64,000 nt of DNA from Bacteroidales bacterium. GTDB lineage: Bacteria > Bacteroidota > Bacteroidia > Bacteroidales > WCHB1-69. The stretch lies in contig JAGCCZ010000001.1 of assembly GCA_017651425.1 (NCBI GenBank), positions 6,222 to 70,221 on the forward strand, given 5' to 3'. A program made the translations under genes and the position numbers. This document shows, piece by piece, positions 4,600-58,167 of the stretch (position 1 is its first letter; every line of letters begins with the position of its first letter). A model generated the notes under the pieces. The model did no database searches, had not been told where the DNA came from, and saw only the letters and a program-made list of their open reading frames with translations.

Positions 4600-5631
4600 C
4601 TATTTTGTCAAAATATCCACACCCTCTTTGTCTGTCACGCGGCCGATGACACTTGCCTTTTCGCCCAGTTCTTGGAACAGAGAAAGCGTCTGATCCGCAT
4701 CTTCGGGACGGACGACAAGGACCATGCCGATGCCCATGTTGAAAATATTGAACATTTCGCGGTGGTCAACTTTGCCATATTTTTCGAGGAAGGGGAAGAT
4801 CGGGGGCATCTCCCACGTGCCCTCTTCCACATGGATGCCCTGGCCGGGCTGCAGCACACGGGGGATGTTCTCGTCGAAGCCGCCGCCGGTGATGTGGCAG
4901 ATGGCATGGATGTCGATTTTCTCCAACACTTGCAGAACAGGCTTCACATATATGCGCGTGGGGGTGAGCAGGACGTTGCCCAGTGTGTCGGGCAGCCCTT
5001 CGTATTGGGTGTTGAGGTCCAAGTGGTTGTCTTTGAAGACGATTTTGCGGACGAGGGAGAAGCCGTTGGAGTGGACGCCCGTGGAGGCAAGCCCCACCAG
5101 TAGGTCGCCCACCTGCACTTTGCTGCCATCGATGAGCTTGGATTTCTCCACCGCACCGACGGTAAAGCCGGCGATGTCATATTCGTCCTCGTCGTACATG
5201 TCCGGCATCTCGGCGGTCTCGCCGCCGATGAGGGCGCAGTTGGACATGACGCAACCATCGGCCACGCCTTTGACGATGGCCTCGATCTTGGCAGGGTCGT
5301 TTTTACCCACGGCGATGTAGTCGAGGAAAAACAGCGGTGCGGCGCCCTGGGCGAGCACGTCGTTGACGCACATGGCCACAGCATCCTGCCCGATAGTGTC
5401 GTGCTTGTCCATCATGAAGGCGATTTTGAGCTTGGTGCCCACACCATCAGTGCCGCTGACAAGGATCGGTTCCTTATAGTTGAGCGAAGCGAGGTCGAAC
5501 ATGCCGCCAAAGCTGCCGATGTTGCCCATCATGCCGGGACGCTGCGTGGCCGCAATGTGCTTCTTGATACGTCTCACCGACTCATAGCCGGCCTCCAATG
5601 TCACACCCGCCTCTTCGTAAGATTTTGCCAT
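4600..5631 (-). CDS. purM: Phosphoribosylformylglycinamidine cyclo-ligase (AIR synthetase)
   Basis: The 343-aa ORF has full-length PurM-like sequence (YEEAGV..., [19 protein letters not shown]). Confidence 0.93.
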
Positions 5632-5673
5632 ATTTTGTTTTATTTTGAGTTATGAACTTTGAAAAAATTGGGA

Positions 5674-6747
5674 TTACAGGATAAGCATGGCGTCGCCATA
5701 GGTGAGGAAACGGTATTTTTCCGCGACAGCCTCCTTGTAGGCACGCATGACGAACTCGTATCCGCCGAAGGCGGCGACCATCATCAGCATGGAGCTTTGG
5801 GAAGCATGGAAATTGGTGATCATGGCGTTGCCCACCATGAAGTTGTAGGGCGGATAGATGAACTTGTTGGTCCACATGTCCTCCTTGCCGTTCATCTCGG
5901 TTGTCTTGACATGGCCGTTGGCATAGACGGAGGACTCGAGTGCTTTCATGGTGGTGGTGCCCACCACGACGATCTTGTGCCCGTCGTCCTTGGCCTTGTT
6001 GATGGTGTCGGCCACTTCGGCACGGATGATCATTCGTTCGGAGTCGGCCTTGTGCTTGGAGAGGTCCTCAACATCGATGTCGGTGAAGTTGCTCAATCCC
6101 GCATGAAGGGTGATGTAAGTGGTCTCTATCCCTTTGAGTTCCATTCTCTTGAGGAGTTCTCGGCTGAAATGGAATCCTGCGGCGGGAGCCACCACGGCAC
6201 CCTCTTCGGAAGCATAGATGGTCTGATAGTCGTTCTCGTCTTCCGGTTCGATCTCGCGCAGGCGCTGAATGTCGTCGGGCACGGGTGTGGTGCCTATGTC
6301 CATCAGCTTCTGCTTGAAGGCATCATGGTCGCCATCGAAGAGGAAGCGGAGCGTTCTTCCGCGGGAGGTGGTGTTGTCAATGACCTCGGCCACCAAGCTG
6401 TCGTCCTCGCAAAAACAGAGTTTGTTGCCGATGCGGATTTTACGGGCGGGGTCCACTAAGACATCCCACAGCCGGCTTTCGGCATCCAACTCACGCAACA
6501 GGAAGACGCGGATTTTGGCACGGGTCTGCTCCTTTTCGCCGTACAGGAGCGCCGGGAAGACGCGCGTATTGTTCATCACGAACATATCGCCTTCGTCAAA
6601 ATAATTAATGACATCCTTAAACAACTTGTGCTCAATCGTTTTAGTCTTACGATCCAGCACCATCAAACGGGCTTCGTCCCGTTCTTGCACAGGATGAAGG
6701 GCAATCAACTCCTGTGGCAAATAGTACTTGAATTCTGATAATTTCAT
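5674..6747 (-). CDS. queA: S-adenosylmethionine:tRNA ribosyltransferase-isomerase
   Basis: [19 protein letters not shown] is a typical QueA N-terminus. The track ORF starts at a TTG (6768) that overlaps the promoter box, so I start at ATG 6747. Confidence 0.9.
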
Positions 6748-6765
6748 TGTGAAAAAATTGGCCTG

Positions 6766-6773
6766 CAAAGATA
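6766..6773 (-). promoter_or_regulatory. -7 box TATCTTTG upstream of queA
   Basis: Lies 18 nt upstream of ATG 6747. Confidence 0.55.
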
Positions 6774-6853
6774 CAACAAAAAAGCACTTTTGTCAAGTGT
6801 TTTTTTGAGATTTTTGAAAGAAAAACATTTTTTAACGTTCGGCCACTCGGAAA

Positions 6854-7720
6854 TTATTCCTTCCGCAAGCGCCTGTGGTTGAGGAAGCGGTTTTCCTGGC
6901 TGATGGCGCGCAACCGCTCCACCGTTTCCGGCGAGAAGAAAGATTCCGCCACTTTTTCCTCCAAGTAATCGATTGCCAGATCGTTAGGATGGCAGAGATC
7001 CTTGGCGTAAAAACGATAGTCGCGCAAGTCGTCCACCAAATATTCGTACGACGGGAAATAGAAGGTGCTTTCCTGGTCCACTAACTTCTCCTCGGCCAGC
7101 AGCAACACGGCCTTGCTCAGGCTGTTCTCGTGCATGCCGTCGCCGGCGTGGCGCACCGGACTCACCGTGAACACCACCTTCATGTCGGGCCGCACTTCGC
7201 GCACCGCCTGCAAGGTCGTGTTCCACAAGGAGACAATCTTCTTCACGTCGAGCCGCAAGCGGTCGAACTGATAGTTGGGGATTTTGTGGCAATTGGCCAC
7301 GATGAGGTCGCGGGGAATGTATTTGTAGCAAAACGCCGTGCCGAACGTGACAAAAAGGATGTCCGTTTCGCGGAAAAACTGCGCCGCCGCCGCCAATTGC
7401 TCATCGATGTTGCGTTCAAACTCCTCGAAATTTTCACGGGAGAACTTACCATGATGCGCAAAACTCACCCACAAATCCCTGTTTTTCAAAAAATAACGGT
7501 CCTTGTCGAAAGATTCGGGATGCATCAGAAGCCTAAGCGCATGATCAATGGAAACAGGGTTGAACAGCACGCCGAACGGATTAGAGCAGACCTGAAAACG
7601 ATGACGGTAGAAATAGCTGCCGATGTTGTCGGAAAAACAGGATCCGAGCAACATGATTTTGCTGTTATAATTGATTTCAAATGGGTATTCCGGAGCGGGT
7701 ATATTTGTTCTAAAAATCAT
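6854..7720 (-). CDS. GSCFA-domain family protein
   Basis: 288 aa with the eponymous LLGSCFSDNIG motif near the N-terminus. Confidence 0.75.
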   Translation of the reverse strand: MIFRTNIPAPEYPFEINYNSKIMLLGSCFSDNIGSYFYRHRFQVCSNPFGVLFNPVSIDHALRLLMHPESFDKDRYFLKNRDLWVSFAHHGKFSRENFEEFERNIDEQLAAAAQFFRETDILFVTFGTAFCYKYIPRDLIVANCHKIPNYQFDRLRLDVKKIVSLWNTTLQAVREVRPDMKVVFTVSPVRHAGDGMHENSLSKAVLLLAEEKLVDQESTFYFPSYEYLVDDLRDYRFYAKDLCHPNDLAIDYLEEKVAESFFSPETVERLRAISQENRFLNHRRLRKE

Positions 7721-55240: not shown

Positions 55241-55282
55241 TCTATCTCTTCGCCTGCCCTGCCAGCATAGCTCACCCCCTCC

Positions 55283-55332
55283 CCTTCCGCGGCGAGCCAT
55301 CCACAACCTCTTGGCGGGCCATCCCCGCGCCG
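55283..55332 (+). repeat. GC-rich ~50-bp repeat, direct partner at 57295-57346
   Basis: CCTTCCGCGGCGAGCCATCCACAACCTCTTGGCGGGCCATCCCCGCGCCG compared with CCCTTCCGCGGAGAACATGTCCACACCTTTGTGGCGGGCCATCCCCGCGCCG. The core also resembles 26039-26061 (reverse complement) and 28895-28917. Confidence 0.8.
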
Positions 55333-55671
55333 CGGCGGATGCCCGGGACACCGCATACCTACCGGGCCACCCACCCCCGCACGCCGCCGGCGTGCGACAT
55401 CCGCCCGCACATCCTCAACGCTACCAACCCCCGCAGCCCGATGGGCTGCGACGACAGCGCACATAATTGCAAACATGTTGATTTTCCCCACGGACCGTGT
55501 CCCGGAGGGAGACAATCTTAGTAAGGAGCACGGCAACTCGACTGCAACCCGCGACGTAGTTTTCAAAACCATCTTCGAGCAGGCGGAGAGTTTTAAGAAG
55601 AATAGCGATCTTGGGGATGATCCCGAGATGATAAAAAATTTCAACATACACTTTCTGTTATTAAAAAATTG

Positions 55672-55679
55672 TATCTTTG
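55672..55679 (+). promoter_or_regulatory. -7 box TATCTTTG upstream of the toxin gene
   Basis: Lies 22 nt upstream of ATG 55702. Confidence 0.55.
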
Positions 55680-55701: not shown

Positions 55702-56043
55702 ATGGATTTGACTTTTGCAGATAAGAATCTAAAGAAATGTGCTTTGGATCAACGTAAATGCCAGAAGGAGATGGGAAAGCAACGTGCCGAGTTGTATCTT
55801 AGAAGAATCGCAGATCTTGATGCAGCATACACTCTCGAGGACGTCAGGTATTTGCCAGGGCATTACCATGAGCTGACACAGGATAAAAAGGGGAAATGGG
55901 CTTGTGATTTAGACCAACCTTATCGACTGGTTTTCAAACCCCATGAAGACCCTATTCCAGAGGATGAAAATCACAAATACATTTGGGCTGAAATATTAGG
56001 AGTGGAGATTATTGAAATAGTTAATTACCATAAGGAAAAGTAA
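55702..56043 (+). CDS. HigB-like (plasmid-maintenance killer, RelE/ParE superfamily) toxin
   Basis: 113 aa: MDLTFADKNLKKC...RRIADLDAAYTLEDV...HELTQDKKGKWACDLDQPYRLVF matches the killer-protein family pattern. Confidence 0.72.
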   Translation: MDLTFADKNLKKCALDQRKCQKEMGKQRAELYLRRIADLDAAYTLEDVRYLPGHYHELTQDKKGKWACDLDQPYRLVFKPHEDPIPEDENHKYIWAEILGVEIIEIVNYHKEK

Positions 56044-56055
56044 AATAATAAAGAT

Positions 56056-57165
56056 ATGGCACAAAAGAAAAAATTCAGAGCAGTTTACGCATTTCATCCT
56101 GGAACCACATTGAGGGAGAAACTGGACGAAATGGGAATGAGCGTGAAAGAATTCGCAGTGAGAACCTCCAAACCTGAGAAAACCATCAATGCAGTGTTGA
56201 TGGGTGATAGCTCTTTGACACCAGACATGGCTGTTGCTTTTGAACAAATCACTATGATTCCCGCCCACATGTGGCTAAACCTCCAGCGGAATTACGATGA
56301 ATATATGGCGCGTCAAAAGCGGGAGTCGATTCTCAACGATGAAGACACCATCGCTTGGGCAAGGCGCTTCCCATATTCTATTATGGCAAATTTAGGTTGG
56401 GTTCCTGCGACACGCAGCATTAGCGAAAAAATCACAAATCTTTTTTCGTTTTTTAAAATCACTACGGCAAATGCCTGGACAAATTTATTCCTAAACCAAG
56501 CTTTGAAGTCTGAATTTAGACTTTCTTTGTCGGGCACTAAAGATCCTTACGCCATCTCAGCGTGGTTAAGACAAGGGGAAATCTTAGCCGATAATACGAG
56601 CACTAATAACAGCTATTCGGCAGAACGCTTGAAAGAGGAACTGCCTCTGATGTTGAAATTGGTGCAATCACAACCTGATAATTTTGATGCACAATTAAAG
56701 GAGTTATGTTCCAATGCGGGAGTGAAGTTGATCTATATCAGTCATATCACTCATGCTCCCGTGAATGGATGTGCTCGATGGATTGACAACACGCCCTGTA
56801 TTCAGATGACAGACCGTCAAAAGCGTAATGATGTTTTTTGGTTTTCTTTCTTTCACGAAATAGGACATATTCTCTTACATGGGAAAAAAGATGTTTTTTT
56901 AGAGGACACAGAATATCATGATCAACAAAAAGAAAAAGAAATGGCAGCCGATCGATTCGCTTCGGACATTCTTCTTGACAAGAAAAATGAGCAAGCTATC
57001 ATTAGAGAGATTCACGAAAAGACCGTTCAAGCCGATCTAATAAGTGAATTGGCAGACAAATACAAAACACATCCGGCGATTATTATTGGCCGTCTTCAGC
57101 ATCTTCAGATATTGCCTCAGAACTCGGCTTTGAACAGTTTGAAGGCCACTGTTCGCTTCAATTAA
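56056..57165 (+). CDS. HigA/VapI-type HTH antitoxin domain fused to an ImmA/IrrE (COG2856) zinc-metallopeptidase domain
   Basis: The N-terminus has FHPGTTLREKLDEMGMSVKEFA...INAVLMG...WLNLQRNYD. The C-terminus has the HEXXH motif FFHEIGHILLH. Confidence 0.78.
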   Translation: MAQKKKFRAVYAFHPGTTLREKLDEMGMSVKEFAVRTSKPEKTINAVLMGDSSLTPDMAVAFEQITMIPAHMWLNLQRNYDEYMARQKRESILNDEDTIAWARRFPYSIMANLGWVPATRSISEKITNLFSFFKITTANAWTNLFLNQALKSEFRLSLSGTKDPYAISAWLRQGEILADNTSTNNSYSAERLKEELPLMLKLVQSQPDNFDAQLKELCSNAGVKLIYISHITHAPVNGCARWIDNTPCIQMTDRQKRNDVFWFSFFHEIGHILLHGKKDVFLEDTEYHDQQKEKEMAADRFASDILLDKKNEQAIIREIHEKTVQADLISELADKYKTHPAIIIGRLQHLQILPQNSALNSLKATVRFN

Positions 57166-57294
57166 TCTTATCATTTTTGTTTCCTCTATAAAGGTACATT
57201 TCTTTCTACGTAAATGGATGTACCAAACGAACAGGTGCGTACATACCTTAACAGCAAGGATTTTCGTCACGGTGTCTGCGGGCAACAAAGGGAA

Positions 57295-57346
57295 CCCTTC
57301 CGCGGAGAACATGTCCACACCTTTGTGGCGGGCCATCCCCGCGCCG
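57295..57346 (+). repeat. Second copy of the GC-rich ~50-bp repeat
   Basis: See 55283-55332. Confidence 0.8.
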
Positions 57347-57480
57347 GACTGCCAAAATATCAAGACACAGGAAAACAGATTGCCATTCACATTTTTCTTA
57401 TCTTTGCCCTTTCTTTTTTGTGACCAATTTTTTTAATGAAAAATAATCTACAATAACAACCCTGCTAAAAACATCATACA

Positions 57481-58167
57481 ATGAGACACTCTTTTTTAAC
57501 CTTATTATTCACATTGTTGGCGGTTTTCTGCTATGCGCAGGACATTATAGTCACCACAGATGCCCGAAGGATAGAAGCCAAAATTCTGGAAGTTTCTGAA
57601 TCGGAAATAAAATACAAGGAGCTCGACAATCTGGAAGGCCCGATTTACATATTGTCCACCCAAAGCATCGTGTCCATTATTTATGCCAACGGGAAGGTTA
57701 CGATATTTCAGGACTCCTCATCAGAAAAGGAGTATCAGCAGGAAACAACCCCGAGCCTTCTCACCCGTTTAGGTGAAACATACACCTATAAAGGTCATGC
57801 GATGAGAGGCGATGTCTATGCCAATTTCTTGAATGACCATTGCCCAAGTGCCTATGAAATATACCATAGCGGATACATTATCTCCTATACCGGAATATGT
57901 TTGCTGTCTGCCGCAATCGGAATGGAATTGGGTACACTTATTGGCTGTGCCATTGCGGGAGGCAACCTCAACTATTCCATTCCTTACATGTATTGCGCCC
58001 TGGGGTTGTCTGTCGCCAGCATCCCCCTGTTGATTGTTGGATACAACAAAATGCATAAGAGTGTGGATGTCTTCAATCAAAAATGTGCCCCGGATGTCGA
58101 TCATCGTCAAATCTACTGGAGCATTAACACAAATCGGCATGGTGTGGGATTGACACTGAACTTCTGA
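57481..58167 (+). CDS. Hypothetical membrane protein with a signal peptide, a small beta-rich domain and C-terminal TM helices
   Basis: 228-aa ORF. MRHSFLTLLFTLLAVFCYAQ, with hydrophobic segments in the C-terminal half. Confidence 0.5.
   Translation: MRHSFLTLLFTLLAVFCYAQDIIVTTDARRIEAKILEVSESEIKYKELDNLEGPIYILSTQSIVSIIYANGKVTIFQDSSSEKEYQQETTPSLLTRLGETYTYKGHAMRGDVYANFLNDHCPSAYEIYHSGYIISYTGICLLSAAIGMELGTLIGCAIAGGNLNYSIPYMYCALGLSVASIPLLIVGYNKMHKSVDVFNQKCAPDVDHRQIYWSINTNRHGVGLTLNF

What the first reader, a model, noticed from the sequence alone, without database searches (positions are those of the whole stretch)
55702..57165. HigB-like toxin paired with an HTH-ImmA/IrrE metallopeptidase fusion instead of a simple antitoxin
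Seen: a 113-aa killer-protein-like ORF is followed 12 nt later by a 369-aa ORF. The N-terminus of the second ORF is a HigA/VapI-type HTH, and its C-terminus carries HEIGH in an ImmA/IrrE-like context. One TATCTTTG box precedes the pair. Established: ImmA/IrrE peptidases cleave partner repressors in response to damage or phage signals. XRE-COG2856 pairs have been predicted as TA-like or defence modules. Inference: this may be an antitoxin that is a signal-responsive protease, so toxin release could be proteolytically triggered. The location next to an R-M island fits a defence role.
Basis: partly seen in the sequence, partly recalled or inferred. Interest (0 to 1): 0.6.

Follow-up and report, generated by a model that had tools for sequence, protein, structure and literature searches.

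The report
HigB toxin with HigA–zinc-peptidase antitoxin
This is a real two-gene toxin-antitoxin module (a HigB-type RNase plus a HigA DNA-binding domain fused to an ImmA/IrrE-type zinc peptidase) at the edge of a phage-defence island in a rumen Bacteroidales genome, but it belongs to a kind predicted in 2009, tested in E. coli in 2022 and common in Bacteroidota.

Summary
Observation confirmed. A (55702-56043, 113 aa) folds as HigB and keeps the HigB catalytic set. Twelve bases later comes B (56056-57165, 369 aa), which is a HigA-type HTH joined to an M78 peptidase with HEIGH plus a downstream Glu.

The kind is known. Makarova 2009 predicted RelE plus Xre-COG2856 fusions. PD-lambda-2 (Vassallo 2022) has the same first two genes, and RosmerTA antitoxins are HTH-ImmA proteases. 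B matches the PD-Lambda-2_B model (117 bits). The PD-Lambda-2 A and C models find nothing in this genome, and no third gene is conserved in 39 related loci, so this is a strict two-gene form. This scan has already noted such pairs in at least 49 other genomes.

New here:
- Two relatives have cleanly deleted A yet keep B under strong purifying selection (dN/dS 0.056). This argues that A is the toxin and that B is harmless and useful alone, unlike PD-lambda-2 B.
- A conserved ACA-N5-TGT operator sits at the promoter.
- B also heads darT-darG operons.
- 19 of 53 related loci lie within 8 kb of type I R-M genes, several between hsdS and hsdR.

The proteolytic trigger remains inference. Interest is low to moderate.

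The parts
55282..55520 (+). GC-rich (about 0.6) non-coding element upstream of the cassette. Its first 52 nt (55282-55332) are repeated downstream of B.
   Evidence: Composition profile. Direct repeats D1 and D6. Both copies are present in all conspecific contigs, whatever gene lies to the left. Tandem copies occur in a congeneric genome. Partial copies occur elsewhere in the own genome. No Rfam hit.
55646..55660 (+). Operator-like inverted repeat ATACA-CTTTC-TGTTA at the -33 region of the promoter.
   Evidence: ACA-N5-TGT is found in 17 of 34 orthologous upstream regions, against a mean of 1.07 (maximum 5) in 1000 shuffles. Where a TAnnTTTG box is present it sits about 18-21 nt upstream of the box (box minus motif start). 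It is kept as a perfect TAACA-N5-TGTTA in the loci that have lost A.
55672..55679 (+). Bacteroidota-type -7 promoter box TATCTTTG.
   Evidence: Sequence. TAnnTTTG is enriched in the window, 50 against 28.5 expected. The position is conserved in L003, L004 and L005.
55702..56043 (+). Gene A: HigB-family RNase toxin, 113 aa.
   Evidence: H56, R75, Y109 and H110 are invariant in the family. HMM alignment to P. vulgaris HigB puts H56 on His54 and R75 on Arg73. The C-terminal N-Y-H corresponds to D90-Y91-H92 (PMC5027501). dN/dS is 0.010 against the L005 orthologue.
56044..56055 (+). 12-nt spacer between A and B.
   Evidence: No terminator-like site lies on the + strand between the genes.
56056..57165 (+). 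Gene B, 369 aa: HigA-type HTH (residues about 13-87, 56092-56316), a helical middle region, and an M78 ImmA/IrrE-type zinc peptidase (residues about 224-362).
   Evidence: PD-Lambda-2_B HMM gives 3e-34 over residues 86-349. Fold matches are E. coli and P. vulgaris HigA for the N-terminus, and PprI/IrrE (8sln) and CapP (7t5t) for the C-terminus.
56854..56868 (+). HEIGH zinc-binding and catalytic motif (residues 267-271). The likely third ligand E295 is at 56938-56940.
   Evidence: Invariant columns H267, H271 and E295, and E268 in at least 90% of 37 homologues. Sequence.
57295..57346 (+). Right-hand copy of the 52-nt direct repeat that brackets the cassette.

Best explanation
A and B form a type II toxin-antitoxin module of the HigBA lineage. 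It has been elaborated with a protease sensor and serves as an abortive-infection-type defence gene pair.

A is a ribosome-dependent mRNA endonuclease.

B does two things through its HigA domain. It binds and neutralises A. It also represses the promoter by binding the ACA-N5-TGT operator that overlaps the -33 region.

The C-terminal M78 zinc peptidase is the trigger. By analogy with ImmA/ImmR, IrrE/DdrO and CapP/CapH, a signal activates it. The signal could be phage-derived single-stranded DNA, a phage protein or DNA damage. The peptidase then cuts B itself or a neighbouring B molecule between the HTH and the peptidase. This both derepresses the operon and frees A, and translation stops.

What is shown: gene structure, folds, catalytic residues, operator conservation, the dispensability of A, selection on B, and the defence-island and type I R-M neighbourhood.

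What is inferred: A-B binding, DNA binding, the peptidase substrate, the signal, and the defence phenotype.
For: - A has the HigB fold and catalytic residues under strong constraint.
- B's N-terminus passes the HigA equivalog cut-off and matches solved HigA structures.
- B's M78 motif is conserved across a family with 959 50%-identity clusters at E<=1e-30.
- In L003 and L004 gene A is reduced to its first 6-7 codons, while B and the promoter/operator stay intact. B in those two loci shows dS 0.675 and dN/dS 0.056. This is the asymmetry expected if A is the toxin.
- In L005 an intact A coexists with a B that lacks its last ~55 residues. This fits neutralisation through the N-terminal part of B.
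- The operator motif is conserved.
- The identical pair sits at the fixed edge of a variable defence hotspot in conspecific strains.
- Type I R-M genes lie within 8 kb in 19 of 53 related loci. The expectation is about 1%, because about 150 of 401 genomes carry mostly 1-2 HsdR matches.
- Published precedents: PMC2701414, PMC9519451, PMC10440598.
Against: - No experiment exists on this family in Bacteroidota.
- In PD-lambda-2 the fusion protein was the toxic component and HigB rescued it. A third gene, absent here, was needed for defence.
- B also heads complete darT-darG operons, where DarG is the antitoxin. So B need not be an antitoxin at all.
- A scores below Pfam's gathering threshold.
- The window's A has N108 where P. 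vulgaris HigB has the important Asp90.
Confidence: 0.55

Rival explanations
1. B is mainly a protease-gated transcriptional repressor, in effect a fused CapH/CapP- or ImmR/ImmA-type switch. It sits in front of different toxic or defence modules and controls their expression. Neutralisation of A by direct binding is secondary or absent.
For: - B homologues lie directly upstream of complete darT-darG operons.
- Orphan B keeps its own operator and stays under purifying selection.
- The pair is often nested just upstream of hsdR on the same strand.
- B matches the capP model at 3.7e-12.
Against: - The HTH is specifically of the HigA equivalog type, which binds HigB in solved complexes.
- The toxin-first order with a 12-nt gap is classic HigBA.
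- 26 of 29 sampled loci pair B with a HigB-like gene.
Confidence: 0.2
2. Roles are reversed, as reported for PD-lambda-2. The B peptidase fusion is the toxic effector and A, the HigB-like protein, keeps it in check.
For: Overexpressed PD-lambda-2B was toxic and PD-lambda-2A rescued it (PMC9519451). B matches the PD-Lambda-2_B model at 117 bits.
Against: - B exists without A in two species and is conserved there.
- A solo B homologue is carried by gut phages.
- COG2856 proteins of S. pneumoniae were not toxic (PMC4257102).
- A keeps a full RNase active site at dN/dS 0.01.
- The PD-Lambda-2_A model does not recognise A.
Confidence: 0.08
3. It is a plain addiction module that stabilises the edge of the genomic island. 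It has no phage-sensing role, and the peptidase domain is a regulatory relic.
For: The pair and its flanking repeats are constant, while everything to the left varies among strains. No mobility gene is nearby.
Against: The peptidase motif is invariant across a very large family. The strong and repeated embedding in type I R-M operons, together with tested relatives (PD-lambda-2, RosmerTA), points to defence.
Confidence: 0.12

Closest known systems
PD-lambda-2 (E. coli; Vassallo et al. 2022, PMC9519451; PADLOC PDLC03981-03983)
   Same: The first gene is HigB-like. The second gene is a HigA-type HTH fused to an ImmA/IrrE peptidase. B matches the PD-Lambda-2_B HMM at 3e-34 over residues 86-349. 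The setting is a defence context.
   Different: There is no third gene. The PD-Lambda-2_C model finds nothing in the 97.6%-complete genome, and no downstream gene is conserved in 39 related loci. The PD-Lambda-2_A model does not recognise A. Natural orphan B genes argue that B is not the toxin here, unlike PD-lambda-2B.
RosmerTA / NetFlax node D25 (ImmA-protease antitoxins RmrA; Millman 2022, Ernits 2023 PMC10440598)
   Same: It is a two-gene toxin-antitoxin defence module whose antitoxin carries an ImmA-type zinc peptidase, often with an N-terminal HTH. The antitoxin swaps between many toxins. B hits 13 RmrA models, the best at 5e-13.
   Different: The RmrA matches cover only the peptidase part (residues about 214-360) and are much weaker than the PD-Lambda-2_B match. 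The toxin here is a HigB RNase, not one of the RmrT families (no PADLOC hit for A). The HTH is specifically of HigA type.
Canonical HigBA (P. vulgaris Rts1 HigB-HigA; PDB 4mct, 4ypb)
   Same: Toxin-first order, HigB fold and catalytic residues, HigA HTH, and a palindromic operator at the promoter.
   Different: The antitoxin is about 270 residues longer and carries an active-looking metallopeptidase. A has a 20-residue insertion and is only 16-19% identical to P. vulgaris HigB.
Separate protease/repressor switches: ImmA/ImmR (ICEBs1), IrrE(PprI)/DdrO (Deinococcus), CapP/CapH (CBASS)
   Same: An M78 peptidase is paired with an XRE-family HTH, and in those systems signal-activated cleavage of the HTH protein derepresses target genes. 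The fold of B's C-terminus matches PprI (8sln) and CapP (7t5t).
   Different: Here the two are fused in one chain and coupled to a toxin. No cleavage has been shown.
PrrC anticodon nuclease in the EcoprrI type I R-M operon
   Same: In several related genomes the pair is an RNase-encoding insert between hsdS and hsdR of a type I R-M operon.
   Different: There is no sequence or fold relation. In this window the pair lies after hsdR behind another gene, with its own promoter. In conspecific strains the R-M system is replaced by other defence genes.

Membership tests
HigB toxin (PF05015, RelE/ParE superfamily) | Profile match above the curated threshold | tested here: not met
   23.3 bits against a gathering score of 27. 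Some homologues at 65-85% identity carry PF05015 in precomputed annotation.
HigB toxin (PF05015, RelE/ParE superfamily) | RelE-type microbial RNase fold closest to HigB | tested here: met
   AF2 pLDDT 90.6. The top 13 PDB fold hits are all P. vulgaris HigB, with E 2e-5 to 8e-4 and TM up to 0.72 on the target. The profile search of the PDB also finds only HigB and GraT.
HigB toxin (PF05015, RelE/ParE superfamily) | Catalytic residues His54, Arg73, Asp90, Tyr91, His92 (PMC5027501) | tested here: inconclusive
   H56 and R75 align to His54 and Arg73 and are invariant. Y109-H110 are invariant at the C-terminus. The Asp90 position is N108 in the window protein (N or D across the family). The C-terminal equivalence rests on position, not on a printed alignment.
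HigB toxin (PF05015, RelE/ParE superfamily) | Ribosome-dependent mRNA cleavage and growth arrest | not testable with these tools
   Needs expression and cleavage assays.
HigA antitoxin (TIGR02607) | Equivalog model above cut-off, encoded directly downstream of higB | tested here: met
   56.5 bits against a cut-off of 47.7, over residues 13-87. The profile matches solved HigA structures at 2e-10. The spacer after A is 12 nt.
HigA antitoxin (TIGR02607) | Binds a palindromic operator in its own promoter | tested here: inconclusive
   A conserved ACA-N5-TGT inverted repeat sits at the -33 region in 17 of 34 loci, against about 1 in shuffles. Binding itself was not tested.
Peptidase M78 (ImmA/IrrE, COG2856) | Profile above threshold, with HExxH plus a downstream Glu ligand | tested here: met
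   36.7 bits against a gathering score of 22. H267, H271 and E295 are invariant and E268 is kept in at least 90%. Fold matches are PprI and CapP.
Peptidase M78 (ImmA/IrrE, COG2856) | Signal-dependent cleavage of an XRE-family HTH partner | not testable with these tools
   Needs biochemistry.
PD-lambda-2 defence system | Component B (HTH-peptidase fusion) | tested here: met
   PDLC03982 gives 3e-34 and 117 bits.
PD-lambda-2 defence system | Component A recognised by the system's model | tested here: not met
   No PADLOC hit for A. PDLC03981 finds nothing in the genome. That model also rang in no control genome, so the negative result is weak.
PD-lambda-2 defence system | Component C (P4 antitoxin-like, required for defence) | tested here: not met
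   PDLC03983 has no match in the own genome (it rang in no control genome either). After B come 315 nt of non-coding DNA and then an unrelated 228-aa gene with its own promoter box. No third gene is conserved in 39 loci.
RosmerTA | RmrA antitoxin model and an RmrT toxin | tested here: inconclusive
   RmrA models hit only the peptidase part, the best at 5e-13. A matches no RmrT or other PADLOC model.

The most novel reading that the evidence does not exclude
The HigB / HigA-M78 pair is a guard of type I restriction systems, a functional analogue of PrrC. It is repeatedly nested between hsdS and hsdR. Its peptidase domain might sense phage anti-restriction activity or stalled restriction complexes and then release the RNase. 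Orphan B genes and B-darTG operons would be other outputs of the same sensor.
Probability: 0.1. Interest if true: 0.65.

Novelty: new member of a known kind. Interest (0 to 1): 0.27.

Why it matters
As a find it matters little. The architecture has been in the literature since 2009, a relative has been shown to defend E. coli, public annotation already names both proteins, and this scan has met it in dozens of genomes.

Its use is as comparative material for the open mechanistic question about these modules: which partner is the toxin, and what the peptidase does. The natural experiments seen here give clear, cheap hypotheses for bench work. They are the toxin deleted with the fusion protein kept under selection, a C-terminally truncated fusion coexisting with an intact toxin, the same fusion in front of darTG, and frequent nesting in type I R-M operons. 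They also suggest that the toxicity of PD-lambda-2B in E. coli may not generalise.

Tried and rejected
- PD-lambda-2 membership was rejected. The C and A models find nothing, and no third gene is conserved downstream.
- I considered the 228-aa gene after B as a third component. It has no relatives next to B elsewhere, no Pfam family and its own promoter box at 57399, so I rejected it.
- I considered the 69/72-aa ORFs at 57214-57436 as genes. They overlap the GC-rich repeat and look non-coding. They were not pursued.
- I considered the 52-nt direct repeats as attachment sites of a mobile cassette. The repeat belongs to a low-copy GC-rich intergenic element with tandem and partial copies elsewhere. 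No empty site was found among 24 congeners, so this is left unexplained.
- Rfam found no RNA family in 44-64 kb.
- The sigma-70 promoter scan is uninformative for Bacteroidota.
- Fold search of the whole B model gave only domain-level hits with E above 1e-3.

Full report
**What is there**

The two ORFs are as described. A runs from ATG 55702 to the stop at 56043 and encodes 113 aa. B runs from ATG 56056 to 57165 and encodes 369 aa. The gap between them is 12 nt. The mechanically longest ORF for A starts at TTG 55669. That codon lies upstream of the promoter box at 55672-55679, and 37 homologues all align from the ATG.

TAnnTTTG, the Bacteroidota -7 motif, occurs 50 times in the window against 28.5 expected. 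The box is therefore meaningful only because its position is kept in orthologous loci. A second box at 57399 precedes the next gene, so A-B is its own transcription unit. No terminator-like site separates A from B.

**Gene A**

- Pfam HigB-like_toxin scores 23.3 bits, below the gathering score of 27.
- The family is tight: more than 1000 homologues, with mean column identity of 75% among 38 aligned.
- The AlphaFold model is confident (pLDDT 90.6).
- Its 13 best PDB matches are all Proteus vulgaris HigB.
- A profile search of PDB sequences finds only HigB and GraT. It aligns H56 to HigB His54 and R75 to Arg73.
- The protein ends in N-Y-H followed by three residues. P. vulgaris HigB ends in D90-Y91-H92, which with His54 are the residues critical for mRNA cleavage (PMC5027501).
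- H56, R75, Y109 and H110 are invariant. Position 108 is N or D across the family.
- Against its orthologue in L005, dN/dS is 0.010.

I read A as an active ribosome-dependent RNase. This is an inference from fold and residues.

**Gene B**

- Residues 13-87 pass NCBI's HigA equivalog model, with 56.5 bits against a cut-off of 47.7. They match solved HigA structures by sequence profile at 2e-10 and by fold.
- Residues 242-337 pass Peptidase_M78, with 36.7 bits against a gathering score of 22.
- In 37 homologues H267, H271 and E295 are invariant, and E268 is present in at least 90%.
- The AlphaFold model (pLDDT 83.9) is all-helical up to residue 220, followed by a small sheet and helices.
- Its C-terminal half resembles PprI/IrrE bound to ssDNA (8sln) and CapP (7t5t).
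- A strongly conserved stretch around residues 148-164 is modelled with low confidence. Its role is unknown.
- The full-length architecture is very common. There are 6576 cluster representatives at E<=1e-3 and 959 at E<=1e-30, most about 360-370 aa and aligned end to end.
- Public sources already call these proteins 'HigA family addiction module antidote' or 'ImmA/IrrE family metallo-endopeptidase', and call A's relatives 'RelE/ParE family toxin'.

**Relation to known systems**

PADLOC's PD-Lambda-2_B model matches B at 3e-34 over residues 86-349. RmrA (Rosmer antitoxin) and capP models match the peptidase part more weakly.

Vassallo et al. describe PD-lambda-2 as three genes: a HigB-like protein, a HigA-HTH-peptidase fusion, and a P4-antitoxin-like third gene. 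In their assays the fusion was toxic alone, HigB rescued it, and the third gene was required for defence. They cite earlier sequence-based sightings of Xre-peptidase fusions behind toxin-like genes.

Makarova et al. 2009 reported that Xre-COG2856 fusions are often in operons with RelE or PIN toxins. They proposed a protease that cleaves the Xre repressor/antitoxin.

Ernits et al. 2023 place ImmA-protease antitoxins (RmrA) in a hyper-promiscuous toxin-antitoxin node, often with an N-terminal HTH, and suggest HTH cleavage as the control step.

**Why it is not PD-lambda-2 proper**

- The PD-Lambda-2_C and _A models find nothing in this 97.6%-complete genome. Neither model rang in the control genomes either, so these negatives are soft.
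- After B come 315 nt without a credible gene, then a 228-aa protein with no Pfam family.
- Across 39 related loci no downstream ORF family recurs in more than two loci, and the 228-aa protein never recurs.

The Bacteroidota form is a strict two-gene module.

**Comparative evidence on who is the toxin**

In a sample of 401 genomes of the phylum, 55 carry a B homologue. Of 29 loci fetched:
- 24 have A directly upstream by tblastn;
- two more have a diverged 111-aa HigB-like ORF ending in DYH;
- three have no A upstream. Two of these have a downstream DarT (Pfam 5e-60), and in the one locus I extended (L060) DarT is followed by a macrodomain DarG.

The two closest species-level relatives found (sheep and yak rumen MAGs, B 87% and 85% identical) have lost A. 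The promoter, the operator and the first 6-7 codons of A (ATGGATTTGACTTT..) are still there, followed within about 10-15 nt by B's ATG. Between these two orphan B genes dS is 0.675 and dN/dS is 0.056.

B has therefore been kept by selection for a long time without A. This is the pattern expected for antitoxin or regulator genes, and it is hard to square with B being a toxin that A restrains.

Three further observations fit this reading:
- In L005 an intact A (96% identical) sits with a B truncated after residue about 309. That B still holds the HTH and HEIGH.
- Human-gut phages carry a solo B homologue between the terminase and portal genes.
- COG2856 proteins of S. pneumoniae were not toxic when overexpressed.

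**Operator**

An inverted repeat with core ACA-N5-TGT lies at the -33 region. In the window it is ATACA-CTTTC-TGTTA at 55646-55660. The exact core occurs in 17 of 34 orthologous upstream regions, against a mean of 1.07 (maximum 5) in 1000 shuffles. Most of the rest carry near-variants. The orphan-B loci have perfect TAACA-N5-TGTTA. This supports a DNA-binding, autoregulatory role for the HigA domain.

**Setting**

To the left lies a type I R-M operon with nested genes: HsdM, DUF2971, a small protein, HsdS, an OLD-type ATPase-TOPRIM protein and HsdR. A 193-aa secreted protein follows.

Contigs from other samples encode the identical B protein and keep A-B and the right flank. To the left they carry different defence genes:
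- another type I system with Mrr;
- GmrSD plus a kinase plus an SNF2 helicase plus an SMC-like ATPase;
- a KAP/YobI NTPase;
- NERD and T5orf172 proteins.

The pair thus marks the fixed edge of a defence hotspot.

More widely, 19 of 53 B-family loci have HsdM, HsdS or HsdR homologues within 8 kb, 18 of them on the same strand. In at least five genomes the pair lies between hsdS and hsdR, ending 20-260 nt before hsdR. Only 150 of 401 genomes of the phylum have an HsdR C-domain match, mostly one or two. Chance proximity should therefore be around 1%. The related genomes are not independent, but the arrangements differ. This is guilt by embedding, a known habit of defence genes.

**Mechanism**

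I commit to the following. A is a HigB RNase toxin. B is its antitoxin and autorepressor through the HigA domain. The M78 domain is a signal-activated protease whose cleavage of B, in cis or in trans, releases A and derepresses the operon, giving abortive infection. Confidence is about 0.55.

The main alternative is that B is chiefly a protease-gated repressor used in front of several toxic modules (0.2). The reversed PD-lambda-2 roles (0.08) and a plain addiction module (0.12) are less likely.

**Verdict**

The locus is a new member of a known kind. Earlier notes of this scan list HigB plus HigA-M78 pairs in at least 49 other genomes, all filed beside PD-lambda-2, usually with a variable third gene. 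The present case is the two-gene form. Interest is 0.27.

Noticed in passing
window 55282-55520 and 57295-57346; L067 (G421:C17) 1300-2080: A GC-rich (about 0.6), roughly 240-nt non-coding element lies upstream of A, and its first 52 nt recur just after B. The cassette is therefore bracketed by direct repeats 2014 nt apart in every conspecific contig. A congeneric genome has two tandem copies 446 nt apart. The own genome has partial copies on four other contigs. No Rfam family matches. Its nature is unknown (REP-like element, recombination site or small RNA).
   Followed up: partly
L017-L024 (contigs with the identical B protein): The DNA to the left of A-B is a strain-variable defence hotspot. 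It carries type I R-M with OLD, or Mrr, or GmrSD+kinase+SNF2+SMC-like ATPase, or a KAP/YobI NTPase, or NERD+T5orf172. A-B, the 228-aa gene and the giant surface protein to the right are constant.
   Followed up: partly
L060 (G262:C37) 4622-7541; also L061; L062 has this B subtype without DarT: In this subclade of B homologues (46% identical to the window's B), no HigB gene lies upstream. In L060 B instead precedes a complete darT-darG operon, behind an HNH protein and a possible reverse transcriptase (my reading of the sequence, not tested against a profile). L061 also has DarT downstream.
   Followed up: partly
L074-L077, L080, L081, L009, L110: In these loci the HigB / HigA-M78 pair is nested inside type I R-M operons between hsdS and hsdR. 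This is the position PrrC occupies in EcoprrI. In L074-L077, B's stop is 3 nt before hsdR's start.
   Followed up: partly
L003 4905-5003 and L004 4912-5003: In these two loci gene A is deleted down to its first 6-7 codons. The promoter and operator are retained, and an intact B is expressed from the same site.
   Followed up: yes
L005 3064-5951: An AbiH-like 412-aa gene lies just upstream of A (my reading of its N-terminal motif, not tested against a profile). B in this MAG is truncated to 316 aa, with homology to the window ending at residue about 309.
   Followed up: no
L059 (phage PV036448.1) 2989-4044: A human-gut Caudoviricetes phage carries a solo B homologue (32% identical, annotated 'transcriptional regulator') between the terminase and portal genes.
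   Followed up: no
window 57481-58167: A 228-aa protein with a signal peptide and C-terminal membrane helices has no Pfam family. It has its own TATCTTTG box at 57399. Homologues at 67% DNA identity occur in two congeners.
   Followed up: no
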